In this document: positions 14 through 47,278 of the stretch, one piece after another
How the letters are laid out: every line of letters starts with the position of its first letter
How positions within the stretch are numbered: position 1 is the first letter of the stretch
NCBI GenBank assembly: GCA_964016885.1
Contig: OZ024763.1
Span: 14,942,001 to 15,006,000 of the forward strand
Length of the DNA: 64,000 bases
DNA from: Eledone cirrhosa
Taxonomy: Eukaryota
Direction of reading: 5' to 3'
Notes under the pieces: model-generated
Seen by the model: the letters and a program-made list of their open reading frames with translations, nothing else
The model's database searches: none
Told to the model about the DNA's origin: nothing
Made by a program: the position numbers and the translations under genes

Positions 14-136
14 CTGAGAAAAACAGATAACGGTGAGGAGTATATTAATGAAATATGTAGTCCAGGTGATCGACTCTGATTGGAATATAACCTCATCGGG
101 TTGGAGAGGGCACATGGAATCGTTAGCTGACGGCAT
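14..136 (-). CDS. Candidate first coding exon, 41 aa with hydrophobic segment
   Basis: ATG at 136 with an upstream in-frame TAA. MPSANDSMCPLQPDEVIFQSESITWTTYFINILLTVICFSQ ends at a strong phase-0 donor CAG|gtaagc. A plausible acceptor (cttcttttatactccgattccag) at 453-454 would make the exon 14-452. Confidence 0.55.
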
Positions 137-1252
137 TCTTGTTGATGGCCGAGGTGCACTGCTACAGTGTGCAGCTAGTTAGAATGGTGTTGGAACTAAC
201 ACAACACAACACAACACAACACAACACACTGCACAGCCTTACACAGACCTCACATCTCACCAATGCCCCCATACCTCCTCACCCAATGAACGTCAAATCT
301 ATCTCACACTCGTAGCTGACCCTCATGGCCGTCTCACCTTCACAACACCCACTCACAGTTGACCCCTCTCACACACCGACGTCACCCTAACATCTACCTC
401 ACCCCCTCCACAGCTCTCGTTGCCAACTGACCGATCAACCCAATCAACAGACCTGGAATCGGAGTATAAAAGAAGCATGTAATGTCCTTTGAGAAGTTGT
501 TGTTGTTGTTGGTGGTGGTGGTGGTGGTGTTGTTGGCAGTGGTAGTTAATGTGGTTGTTGTTGTGATTGTAGCTATGGTTGTTGTTGTTGTTGTTGTGAT
601 TGTGGTTGTTGTTGTTGTTGCTCCACTGTGTCTGACTAAATTAATAAGTGGTCAAAACAACTCCAGGAGTGAGAATAGAATTAAAAGCAATAATAGACTG
701 GGGGTGGTGGGCTGGGGTGGGACGGGACATATATTGGCAGGGTGGGGACAGGAGGAGGAGGGTGGTGGCAGAGATGGGGAAGGAGGGGGAGGAGGGTGGC
801 AGAATAGGGTAAGATATATATATATATATGTGAGTTGAGGACTGTTTACTGAACACATATATTGGCTTTGCTGGTGGTGGGATCGGGTGGGGTGGAAAGT
901 GTCTTGAGGGGGTGAGGTGGGGGTTTAATGTGGAAGGCTGAGAGTTTCTCATTCATACATACATCTGTTGACTGGAGAGAGAAGCAGTGTACATATATAT
1001 ATATATATATATATATATATATATATATATAATATATACACACCCACCCATATATATATAGACATACATGCACGCATATACATATATGTGTGTTTGTGTA
1101 TATATATATATATATATAAATTTGTGTATATATATATATATAAATTTGTGTATATATATAAATACACACACACACACACAGAAAGAGTATATATAAACAT
1201 AGGACAGACAGAGAGTTACTTAAGAGAAATCTAGTCAAGGAATTTAATGTTT

Positions 1253-1665
1253 GAGAGAGAGAGAGAGAGAGAGTGCGAGAGAGAGAGAGAGACAGAGAGA
1301 GAGAGAGAGAGAGAGAGAGAGAGAGAGAGAGAGAGAGAGAGAGAGAGAGAGAGAGAGAGAGAGAGAGAGAGAGAGAGAGAGAGAGAAAGAGAGAAAGAGA
1401 GAAAGAGAGAGAGAGAGAGAGAGAGAGTGCGAGAGAGAGAGAGAGACAGAGAGAGAGAGAGAGAGAGAGAGAGAAAGAGAGAGAGAGAGAGAGAGAGAGA
1501 GAGAAAGAAAGAGAGAGAGACACAGAGAGAGAGAGAGACAGAGAGAGAGAGAGAGAGAGAGAGAGAGAAAGAGAGAGAAAGAGAGAGAGAGACACAGAGA
1601 GAGAGAGAGAGAGAGAGAGAGAAAGAGAGAGAAAGAGAGAGAGAGAGAGACACAGAGAGAAAGAG
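1253..1665. repeat. (GA)n polypurine microsatellite
   Basis: About 410 bp of near-pure GA repeat. Confidence 0.95.
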
Positions 1666-1757
1666 GAGAATAAAGGGGAATTCCTTGCTTTGGATTAGGT
1701 GGACATGGGTTCAAATTAGAGCAACTCCTCCTGGTTCCCTTCTATAACAATTTAAAA

Positions 1758-1948
1758 ATAATTGTTTCTACTTTAGGCACAAGGCCAGAAATTACCCCAG
1801 TGCATCACTGGTACTTTATTTTATGGACCTCGTAAGGATGAAAGGCAAAGTTAACCTCGGTGGAATTTGAACTCAGATCATAAAGGGTCGCAACTCTTTG
1901 CTACAAAGCATGGCGTCCGACCCTCTACTGATTCTGCCAATCCTCCGC
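1758..1948 (-). mobile_element. tRNA-derived SINE family A (central domain resembling Meta-type SINEs)
   Basis: Minus strand has a B-box-like gagttcaaat followed by 'aactttgcctttcatcctt...taaaataaagtaccag'. Further copies near 10170-10370, 11742-11923, 16815-16955, 28660-28872, 47452-47640, 49735-49960 and 54030-54305. Confidence 0.8.
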
Positions 1949-1954
1949 AGAGTG

Positions 1955-44950: not shown

Positions 44951-45587
44951 GGGTAGTGTGAGTAGATGTTGTTTACTCGAGAGAAGACTACGTTGGTATG
45001 GTCACGTGATGTGCATGAAAGACGACAGCTGTATAAAAAAGTGCAGGGCGATAAAAATAGACGGTAGCCACGGAGTAGGCAGACCCAGAAAAACACGGGA
45101 CAACTTGATAAATTCCGACCTCACACACTTACACCTCTCCAAGACAATGTCACTGGACCGAGATCTTTGGCGTTACACAGTAATACAGAAGACCCGCCTT
45201 ACCTAAGTACAAAGTGAAATCTAGTCAGTAGGCACCTCTAACAAAATACACCACCGTCCCACTACCCCCCCCTCCCCTTAAATGTGAAGTTATGTTGGTG
45301 CCACAACATCCAGTTCGAAACAAATGAGGTCGTGTAGGTGTCACAACAAAAAAAACACAACAGTCCACGCTGTAATGTGGCCGTGTAGGCAACATGGTAA
45401 AAACATCCCAGCCCCACACTGTAAACATGGTTGGTGTTAGGAAGGGCATCCAGCCGTAGAAAACCCGCCAGACAGCCCTATGCGAGCAAGACAACCACTC
45501 TTGCCTCAAGTGGGAAAACTCCCGTCCAAACCCATGCAAGCGTGGAAGATGGACGTGATGATGATGATGATGATGATGATGATGATA

Positions 45588-45784
45588 CAGACCTATCAAG
45601 TCTACCTGTCTGGTGGGGAGATCTCCCTCCCACTTTGCGGAAGGTGAGAAATGTCTTCTCTTGTGAAAATGGGTATAGATTTCATTATATAAAATCTCCC
45701 CATTTTGCCTAATTTCTACCCAGTTTTTCGGCAATTTTTTTTCAAGGTACTCCTCGTGTGGGTTTTTAGAGGTTGGCAGGTCTG
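45588..45784. mobile_element. Short MITE-like element
   Basis: Imperfect TIRs cagacctatcaag / gttggcaggtctg, flanked by TA on both sides. Confidence 0.55.
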
Positions 45785-47029
45785 TACATATATATTTATA
45801 TATATATCATCATCATTTATTTATATTTATATATATCAGCATCATCATCGTTTAACATCCATCTTCCACGCTAACATTGGTTAAACGGTTTTGTTCCATT
45901 TGATGCAGGAATGGTCAGGAGACTGTGTCTCACTTGTATGGAAGTGTCTCTGGCAGGTTTTCTGCGGTTGGATGCTCTTCCTAACACCAACCACTTTATA
46001 TATATATATGTATATGTAAAAGACAGCAAAAAGCACCCAGCCCACACTGTAAAGCAGACGTGTAAAAGACATGGCAAAAAGCACCCAGCCCACACTATCA
46101 ATGTGGTTTGCGTTATGAAGGGCATCCAGCCATAGAAACACCCCTATATAAGCGAGACATGGTCACTCGACACAACTTGCCTCAAAATAGGACCCGTCTA
46201 ACCCATGCTAGCGTGGAAGATGGACGTTAATCAATGATGATTCATATATACATATATATGTGTGTGTGCGTGTGTGTTTTTGAGGTGAGATGGTGAGATG
46301 GATCTAGGATATCAAGACAAGAAATATGTGATGACATAATCTATTAGTCAATATATTGATTTACCATAATCAATCATTGCTCTGAAATGATCATAAAACA
46401 ATGAACTAATTAACAACCTATCATTGACGATTTTAGTTTTATTTAATTGTTTAATACACACACACACACACACACACCCATGCTAGCGTGGAAGATGGAC
46501 GTTAAACAAAGATGATGATGATGATATATATATATATATATATGTGTAAATAAATCTACCAAAATATACGGTAGTGTCCAATCCGTATGAAGAACTCAAT
46601 GTAATCCAAATATCATAAAAAGAGAAGTAGCATTCAAAATTTTTCGATGAAAATCACAGGAAAACAGAGTCAAGATAAATTAATAAAAACAATGAATAAA
46701 AATAAAGAACAAGTTCCTGATATTAAAAAATTCATCATTTAAATGATGAATTTTTTAATATAAGGAACTTATTCTTTGTCTTTATTCATTGCTTTTATTA
46801 ATTTATATATATATAAAATGTGTGTATGTATGTCTGTATATATATAATTTACTCAACCGATGCAAAGCAATAAAGCCACTAAAATGCCAGGGGTTTAAAT
46901 ATATATATGTATAATTTACTCAACTCAAGCAAGGCAATAAAGCCACTAAAATAGAAGGGGTTACTGTGAAGGGAGAAGGACAAGACGGAGAAAACATTAT
47001 TTAAGGAGAGACAAGATCATGATTGATGT

Positions 47030-47268
47030 TGCTTTTGAATTTTTTACAAACTGTATTTTGTGGCCAGGATACAAGAAGCTGGAAGAGAAGTCCATTGGTG
47101 AGATGTGTGAGGGAAGAATCTATCGGAATAGTTGCGACTGCATTTAAGAAGTTCAACTGTAAAAGGATGAGACCTAGCCACCAATACGGTGCTCCCTTTT
47201 AAACTTGTGAATACAAGGCAACAAAGATGAAAGCTCATCAGAACAATTCCCATGAAAATAATAGTGTA
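47030..47268 (-). mobile_element. Degenerate Jockey/CR1-group LINE 3' fragment
   Basis: Frameshifted YYFHGNCSDELSSLLP..HPFTV..DRFFPHTSHQWTSLP, typical of a LINE ORF2 C-terminus. Confidence 0.65.
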
Positions 47269-47278
47269 AAGTCCCTAC

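What the first reader, a model, noticed from the sequence alone, without database searches (positions are those of the whole stretch)
14..47278. Giant intron at the myosin-XVIII motor/neck boundary holds two phase-0 candidate first exons: possible headless isoforms
Seen: the five introns between the identified exons are 0.6-7.6 kb, but after 'YRIGLSQ' (phase 0) I found no 'VFFR' exon in 47 kb. Two same-strand ATG-initiated ORFs there (18257-18973 and 14-136) each have a GT donor in phase 0, the phase the missing exon must accept. Known: internal promoters make motor-less rod proteins from myosin II heavy-chain genes (molluscan catchin/myorod, Drosophila myosin rod protein), and a headless Myo10 exists. 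Inference: this locus makes at least two motor-less myosin-XVIII proteins (unique N-terminus + IQ + coiled coil). I know of no such description in molluscs, but I could not search the literature.
Basis: partly seen in the sequence, partly recalled or inferred. Interest (0 to 1): 0.85.

Follow-up and report, generated by a model that had tools for sequence, protein, structure and literature searches.

The report
Headless myosin-18 isoform in cephalopods
An exon inside a 53-kb intron of an octopod myosin-18 gene is spliced directly onto the neck exon, and cuttlefish-like proteins show the same join, so these animals likely make a motor-less myosin-18 rod, a form already annotated in insects.

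Summary
The host gene is myosin-18 (minus strand). The missing VFFR exon lies 5.6 kb beyond the window, so the intron is 52,868 bp, with no assembly gap. It is not unique: the next intron is 48.5 kb and the post-PDZ intron 118 kb.

Candidate 18257-18973 is a real exon. A contig from one public run (kind not on record, spliced, so likely RNA) covers 19322-18254 unbroken and continues into the first 30 nt of the VFFR exon. Two unnamed cuttlefish-like proteins (1033 aa) have a homologous N-terminus joined at SEFN|VFFR and no motor. A first exon is likely: the leader holds an in-frame stop and no strong cassette acceptor stays in frame.

Candidate 14-136 is untested by RNA and has no homolog; about even odds.

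The product is predicted to be about 1,085 aa: acidic N-terminus, IQ neck, full rod. It likely acts as a rod that co-assembles with myosin filaments.

The kind is known: motor-less myosin-18 isoforms are published for Drosophila and annotated in 15 insects and a sea urchin at the same boundary. None of 12 named octopod models I saw lacks the motor. New member of a known kind.

The parts
18257..19322 (-). Alternative exon, likely a first exon, of the motor-less myosin-18 transcript (extent covered by the contig of run X2)
   Evidence: One 1096-nt contig, depth 22, lies 19322-18254 with 0 differences and 0 gaps. It has no loose end at 19322 and a 27-nt loose end equal to nt 4-30 of the VFFR exon.
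18257..18973 (-). Coding part: 239-aa acidic, Ser-rich unique N-terminus ending ...SEFN, phase-0 GT donor at 18256
   Evidence: 33% identical to the 183-aa N-terminus of P0144; score 161 against shuffle mean 41, 0 of 1000 shuffles reach it. No Pfam family.
18974..19322 (-). 349-nt leader with an in-frame stop 32 codons upstream of the ATG and two upstream ORFs (ATG at 19234, 54 codons; ATG at 19214, 13 codons)
19323..19510 (-). Inferred internal promoter region: a CT-repeat tract followed by CAGTT initiator-like words (initiator likeness recalled, not tested)
   Evidence: Sequence; repeat. A contig cannot show a start, so this is inference.
14..136 (-). Second candidate first exon, 41 codons, strong phase-0 donor; unconfirmed
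   Evidence: Single match in the genome. No homolog among fetched proteins or in the Atlas. Not covered by the read-laying run.
1..47278 (-). Window part of the 52,868-bp intron between the last motor exon (YRIGLSQ) and the VFFR/IQ exon, which lies 5,590 bases beyond window base 1
47279..47344 (-). Last motor-domain exon of myosin-18 (...YRIGLSQ), phase-0 donor
47948..48042 (-). Myosin-18 motor exon
50080..50275 (-). Myosin-18 motor exon
52270..52456 (-). Myosin-18 motor exon
60045..60204 (-). Myosin-18 motor exon
61581..61725 (-). Myosin-18 motor exon

Best explanation
The exon at 18257-19322 is spliced in frame onto the VFFR/IQ exon of myosin-18 and is likely the first exon of an internal promoter, so the gene is predicted to make a motor-less protein of about 1,085 aa that would likely act as a rod co-assembling with myosin filaments. 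Shown: the splice join, the open frame, the leader with an in-frame stop, and the same N-terminus and join in cuttlefish-like proteins that carry IQ and rod but no motor. Inferred: the promoter, the full-length transcript in this species, and the function. The protein would lose the PDZ domain and the actin-tethering pseudo-motor and keep the light-chain neck, the coiled coil and the C-terminal ...SEA end. It would thus likely enter myosin-2/myosin-18 filaments as a head-less spacer and scaffold that presents an acidic, Ser-rich N-terminus. The 14-136 ORF may be a second such first exon (about 0.45) but is not shown.
For:: the X2 contig leaves the genome at the 18256 donor. Its 27 loose letters plus the shared GTA are the first 30 nt of the VFFR exon, and that 27-mer occurs once in the 464 kb fetched. 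The DNA-sized runs X1, X3 and X4 continue into the intron, and the exon has one full match in the genome, which argues against a processed copy. P0144 and P0150 (1033 aa; rod 97.8% identical to a Sepia pharaonis piece) have a homologous N-terminus, then VFFR; Pfam shows IQ and Myosin_tail_1 but no Myosin_head for P0144; two further unnamed proteins read SEFN then V into unrelated sequence, as expected for a GT donor at the same place; 7 of 7 pyrimidine-rich AG sites between 19420 and 18800 hit a stop in phase 0; the one variant in the ORF is synonymous; the listed indels are in the leader; the gene's 118-kb intron holds homologs of two annotated Octopus sinensis first exons. Function: mammalian Myo18A forms mixed filaments with non-muscle myosin 2 (PMC11112018); motor-less MYO18A constructs still self-associate and bind GIPC3 through the C-terminus (PMC10234109); myorod acts as a co-filament (PMC4410989 abstract).
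Against: The join rests on one contig of one run whose kind is not on record. It has 30 letters on the VFFR side, one short of the tool's 31-letter rule for a bridge, and the four runs are one study. Contigs cannot show a start or strand, so the promoter is inferred. The contig ends 30 nt into the VFFR exon, so the full rod is seen in the cuttlefish-like proteins only. Similarity is significant in the last 65 residues (0 of 1000 shuffles) but not in residues 30-125 (87 of 1000). The donor is weak (score 2.1 against 6.3 for the motor exon). Two upstream ORFs may damp translation. No protein, tissue or filament evidence exists for any cephalopod form; the function is by analogy.
Confidence: 0.72

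Rival explanations
1. The motor-less protein is real but works mainly as a dominant-negative partner: it pairs with full-length myosin-18 through the shared coiled coil, giving one-headed dimers and competing for light chains and tail ligands (as recalled for headless Myo10).
For: It keeps the whole dimerising rod and the neck. Myo18A-beta may heterodimerise with Myo18A-alpha (PMC11112018).
Against: A conserved 180-240-aa N-terminus with retained motifs suggests a function of its own. Myosin-18 heads have no ATPase to inhibit (PMC3122231). Not exclusive of the best explanation.
Confidence: 0.15
2. The exon is an internal cassette that inserts up to about 200 aa between motor and neck of a full-length myosin-18, using an acceptor such as the in-frame one at 18853.
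For: Haliotis rufescens isoforms X1, X2 and X4 carry a 9-aa insert at exactly this junction. An in-frame CAG lies before 18853. The CT tract ends in a perfect-looking AG before 19377.
Against: The X2 contig runs unbroken across 18853 with no loose end there. 7 of 7 pyrimidine-rich acceptors meet a stop in phase 0. P0144 and P0150 begin with Met and have no motor.
Confidence: 0.06
3. The spliced RNA exists but is unproductive: a leaky intronic start whose upstream ORFs block translation.
For: Two upstream ATGs; weak donor; no named cephalopod protein of this form among those listed.
Against: An open frame with conserved motifs and the same junction in an octopod and in cuttlefish-like sequences implies selection on the peptide.
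Confidence: 0.05
4. On the second candidate only: 14-136 is not an exon but a chance ORF ending at a strong donor-like site, or a recursive (AG|GT) splice point of the long intron.
For: No homolog. Its 3' half looks like an acceptor tract followed by GTAAG. Short ATG-ORFs with weaker donors are common: 13 others in the two big introns on both strands.
Against: ATG-ORFs of 40 codons or more with donor score 7 or more: 0 on 464 kb of antisense strand (1 at score 6 or more); on the sense strand 4, of which 2 are real exons of this gene. The phase is the needed one, and the stretch has a single genomic match. AG|GTRAG sites are not enriched on the sense strand (3 against 2), so recursive splicing has no support of its own.
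Confidence: 0.55

Closest known systems
Motor-less isoforms of insect myosin-18 (Drosophila Mhcl/CG31045 short isoforms; RefSeq isoforms such as Anabrus simplex X4, Schistocerca cancellata X3, Planococcus citri X4, Diorhabda sublineata X6)
   Same: Same gene class. Unique N-terminus joined directly at the [IV]FFR residue, keeping IQ and rod (PMC3122231 passage).
   Different: No detectable similarity between the cephalopod and the insect N-termini. Insect N-termini are mostly longer (77-795 aa among the named isoforms).
Lytechinus myosin-18-like models X1/X2 (sea urchin)
   Same: No motor; a 507-aa N-terminus joined at IFFR.
   Different: No N-terminal similarity to 18257-18973. All 4 members of that cluster lack the motor, so a split gene model is not excluded.
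Catchin/myorod (molluscan myosin-2 gene) and Drosophila myosin rod protein
   Same: Alternative start inside a myosin heavy-chain gene; unique N-terminal exon plus rod (PMC3912159). Myorod works as a co-filament (PMC4410989 abstract).
   Different: They come from class-2 genes and start after the light-chain-binding region; this form comes from class 18 and keeps the IQ neck.
Headless Myo10 (recalled, no call)
   Same: Internal promoter removes the motor and keeps IQ motifs and tail.
   Different: Class 10 with a PH/MyTH4/FERM tail, not a filament-type coiled coil.
[quoted passage not shown] 2004; title seen only)
   Same: A short myosin-18A of about the size expected for a headless form.
   Different: Its structure and origin could not be read, so the relation is unknown.

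Membership tests
Class-18 myosin gene (host) | PDZ, myosin-18 SH3, motor, IQ and coiled-coil exons colinear with known myosin-18 | tested here: met
   Colinear tblastn matches to Octopus myosin-XVIIIa at 72-96% identity; tail exons to ...GSVSEA stop; domains of P0007.
Motor-less myosin-18 isoform (insect Mhcl short type) | Unique N-terminus joined in frame at the [IV]FFR exon, skipping all motor exons | tested here: met
   Spliced contig 18257 to VFFR; SEFN|VFFR in P0144 and P0150.
Motor-less myosin-18 isoform (insect Mhcl short type) | Keeps IQ neck and full rod | tested here: met
   P0144 has IQ and Myosin_tail_1, no Myosin_head. In the window's species the exons are present but the contig ends 30 nt into the neck exon, so the full transcript is inferred.
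Motor-less myosin-18 isoform (insect Mhcl short type) | Own transcription start inside the motor/neck intron | not testable with these tools
   Only contigs were available; no loose end at 19322 and no in-frame strong acceptor are indirect.
Motor-less myosin-18 isoform (insect Mhcl short type) | Common descent of the first exon with the insect ones | tested here: inconclusive
   No local similarity to 8 insect N-termini beyond shuffles. One 6-residue junction match between the cuttlefish-like and polyneopteran ends, picked after the fact.
Catchin/myorod and myosin rod protein | Derived from a muscle myosin-2 heavy-chain gene | tested here: not met
   The host is myosin-18.
Catchin/myorod and myosin rod protein | [quoted passage not shown] | tested here: not met
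   The join is upstream of the IQ motifs; definition from PMC3912159.
Catchin/myorod and myosin rod protein | Co-polymerises with myosin filaments | not testable with these tools
   Needs biochemistry.
Headless Myo10 | Class-10 gene with PH/MyTH4/FERM tail (recalled) | tested here: not met
   Tail is a Myosin_tail_1 coiled coil.

The most novel reading that the evidence does not exclude
A motor-less myosin-18 that starts exactly at the VFFR exon is an ancient, largely unstudied product of the gene. It was present in the protostome or bilaterian ancestor, kept in insects, coleoid cephalopods and sea urchins under a fast-evolving first exon, and serves as a light-chain-bearing filament scaffold that needs no head. 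The cephalopod gene may make two versions.
Probability: 0.25. Interest if true: 0.65.

Novelty: new member of a known kind. Interest (0 to 1): 0.48.

Why it matters
Myosin-18 heads have no ATPase (PMC3122231), and what the class does is debated (PMC11112018). A natural headless isoform kept in both an octopod and cuttlefish-like animals is a built-in deletion experiment: removing its first exon alone would separate tail and filament functions from actin tethering. It also adds an isoform missing from the named cephalopod models seen here, and shows three distant lineages using the same entry exon. It is not a new kind of system.

Tried and rejected
Search for longer relatives of the 239-aa ORF: none among 3122 candidates; the cuttlefish-like forms were hidden as cluster members and found. 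Atlas searches for both ORFs: best scores 0.87 and 0.81, leads only. Pfam: no family for either ORF.

AlphaFold2 of the N-terminus: mean pLDDT 30 with 2 sequences. Model of P0144: residues 1-265 under 50. Neither shows a fold or pairing with the VFFR strand, and with such shallow alignments neither proves disorder; no fold search was run. Alignment A3 misaligned the N-terminus and was dropped.

Idea that the exon's 3' end is a decayed duplicate of the last motor exon: not supported, 105-134 of 500 shuffles score as high for the four cephalopod ends. The 14-136 end scored 10 of 500, which the shared CAG donor can partly explain. Recursive splice sites: 3 sense against 2 antisense.

No RNA holder was listed on record; X2 is taken as RNA from its spliced contig and size. 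The sigma-70 promoter scan does not apply to an animal. A 211-codon ORF in the 118-kb intron looks like a LINE reverse transcriptase (recognised from memory).

Literature searches showed no paper on a motor-less myosin-18 in a mollusc. One search was badly framed, and most subscription papers are not held. Billington 2015, Cross 2004 and Bonn 2013 were not read, and no supplements were opened. Look-ups of earlier scan findings were empty.
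Full report
Place and gene. The window is G000:C24:14942001-15006000. I fetched 200 kb on each side. tblastn with Octopus myosin-XVIIIa proteins gives a colinear minus-strand gene from the PDZ exon through motor, neck and rod at 72-96% identity. Six motor exons lie in the window, in one open frame ending YRIGLSQ in phase 0, with introns of 603-7588 bp. 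The animal is likely an octopod: the VFFR exon matches Octopus sinensis at 38 of 43 residues and the cuttlefish-like proteins at 32-33.

The observation. No VFFR exon lies in the window. It lies 5,590 bases past window base 1 behind a phase-0 acceptor, so the intron is 52,868 bp, with no N run inside. The intron is not singular: the next one is 48,477 bp and the post-PDZ one about 118 kb. That 118-kb intron holds homologs of the first exons of O. sinensis isoforms X4 (E 5e-19) and X5 (a short match, E 2.1, ending at a GT), so in this gene a large intron holding first exons has precedent.

RNA evidence for 18257-18973. Four runs of one study hold the stretch; none is on record as RNA. Laid on 18115-19390, run X2 (87.8 million letters of contigs) gives one 1096-nt contig from 19322 to 18254 without differences, then 27 loose letters. 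Their reverse complement is nt 4-30 of the VFFR exon; the first three letters, GTA, are shared by intron and exon; the 27-mer occurs once in 464 kb. The skipped part is 23,846 bp, GT to AG. X1, X3 and X4 run on into the intron. Limits: one contig, 30 letters on the short side where the tool asks 31, and no start or strand from contigs. Its end 30 nt into the exon fits a graph branch where other exons enter, but does not say which.

First exon or cassette. The contig has no loose end at 19322. The leader has an in-frame stop 32 codons before the ATG and two upstream ORFs. All 7 pyrimidine-rich AG sites between 19420 and 18800 meet a stop in phase 0. On the deletion allele seen in X3 and X4 the frame upstream is also closed and has no Met. 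A weaker in-frame AG at 18853 is crossed without a break. A first exon is therefore likely, not shown.

Conservation. Members of the cluster of P0011 include P0144 and P0150, unnamed 1033-aa proteins. Their rod is 97.8% identical to a Sepia pharaonis piece. They have a 183-aa N-terminus ending SEFN, then VFFR, and P0144 has IQ and tail but no motor. The N-terminus aligns with the window ORF at 33%; score 161, reached by 0 of 1000 shuffles; the signal is in the last 65 residues, while residues 30-125 alone are not significant (87 of 1000). A profile search of 1.84 billion representatives found 2 hits, both reading SEFN then V into unrelated sequence, as a genomic read-through of the same donor would. 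The single ORF variant between runs is synonymous.

Second candidate, 14-136. My one read-laying run did not cover it. It has a single genomic match and no homolog. ATG-ORFs of 40 or more codons ending at a donor scoring 7 or more number 0 on 464 kb of antisense strand, 1 at score 6; on the sense strand there are 4, two of them real exons. By my estimate from that single count, chance in the right phase within 53 kb is about 0.04-0.2. Against this, its 3' half looks like an acceptor tract, and weaker cases are common. I put it at about 0.45.

How it likely works. The predicted protein is 239 plus about 845 residues (rod length from P0007): acidic N-terminus (net charge -24, 16% Ser), neck, coiled coil and a C-terminal ...GSVSEA, present in this genome. 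It lacks PDZ and the actin-tethering head. Mammalian Myo18A co-assembles with non-muscle myosin 2 (PMC11112018, passages). MYO18A constructs without the motor still self-associate and bind GIPC3 through the C-terminus (PMC10234109, passages). Myorod modulates myosin only as a co-filament (PMC4410989, abstract). I infer a head-less spacer and scaffold in myosin filaments; a dominant-negative role is the main rival. Structure models were uninformative for the N-terminus.

Comparison with what is known. Drosophila myosin-18 has shorter isoforms lacking the PDZ or motor domain (PMC3122231, passages). Of the 120 best of 1787 hits to the rod, 17 have no motor domain: 15 insects, 1 sea urchin and 1 partial gastropod prediction. 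All join at [IV]FFR; one insect model keeps the PDZ region. Among 233 fetched proteins with VFFR and rod, 26 were flagged as non-motor joins; I dropped 2 pattern errors and 3 Haliotis forms with a 9-aa insert, leaving 21. None of 12 named octopod models, and no named bivalve or gastropod isoform among those listed, is of this form; these lists were partial. The cephalopod N-terminus shows no similarity to insect or urchin ones. Catchin and myosin rod protein come from myosin-2 genes and start after the neck (PMC3912159, passages), so this works like them but is not a member. I also read passages of PMC7900500, which lists three mammalian isoforms, all with a motor, and the reference list of PMC4428707. 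Ten searches showed no molluscan report.

Verdict. One motor-less isoform is well supported and conserved across coleoids; the second is open. It is a new member of a known but little-studied kind. Interest 0.48.

Noticed in passing
G000:C24:14022624-14826909 (outside the window): The last tail exons lie about 804 kb beyond the previous exon. 200-N gaps sit about 165 bp after that exon and 11 bp before the next, so a block was likely misplaced by scaffolding inside one intron.
   Followed up: partly
G000:C24, about 15057400 and 15093500 (118-kb intron upstream of the window): Homologs of the first exons of Octopus sinensis PDZ-less isoforms X5 and X4.
   Followed up: partly
window 18257-18274 and proteins P0144, P0067, P0074, P0089: The cuttlefish-like junction YRSEFN|VFFR resembles the polyneopteran insect YRTELE|IFFR at the same offset; 9 of 15,719 background windows score as high. 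Picked after the fact, and the window's own LHGSEFN lacks the YR. Shared ancestry or convergence is unexplained.
   Followed up: partly
proteins P0195, P0196, P0200: Haliotis rufescens isoforms carry a 9-aa insert between GLSQ and VFFR, so this intron is also alternatively spliced in a gastropod.
   Followed up: no
L003:4411-4930: The acceptor region before the VFFR exon is tandemly duplicated (82-bp unit), leaving four extra TTGCAG|GTGTG acceptor-like sites upstream of the used one.
   Followed up: no
window 18974-19322: Two upstream ORFs in the leader; a 14-nt deletion in X3 and X4 falls at the stop of the longer one.
   Followed up: partly
window 3830-4669 (+ strand) and 31213-31464 (+ strand): Fragments that look like LINE reverse-transcriptase sequence inside the intron (recognised from memory).
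   Followed up: no
window 7380-9899: Long minisatellite arrays giving repetitive open frames of up to 454 codons on the minus strand.
   Followed up: no
protein P0134: An older Octopus bimaculoides model fuses a CW-type-domain protein to myosin-18, probably a merged gene model; that N-terminus has no match in the 464 kb fetched.
   Followed up: partly
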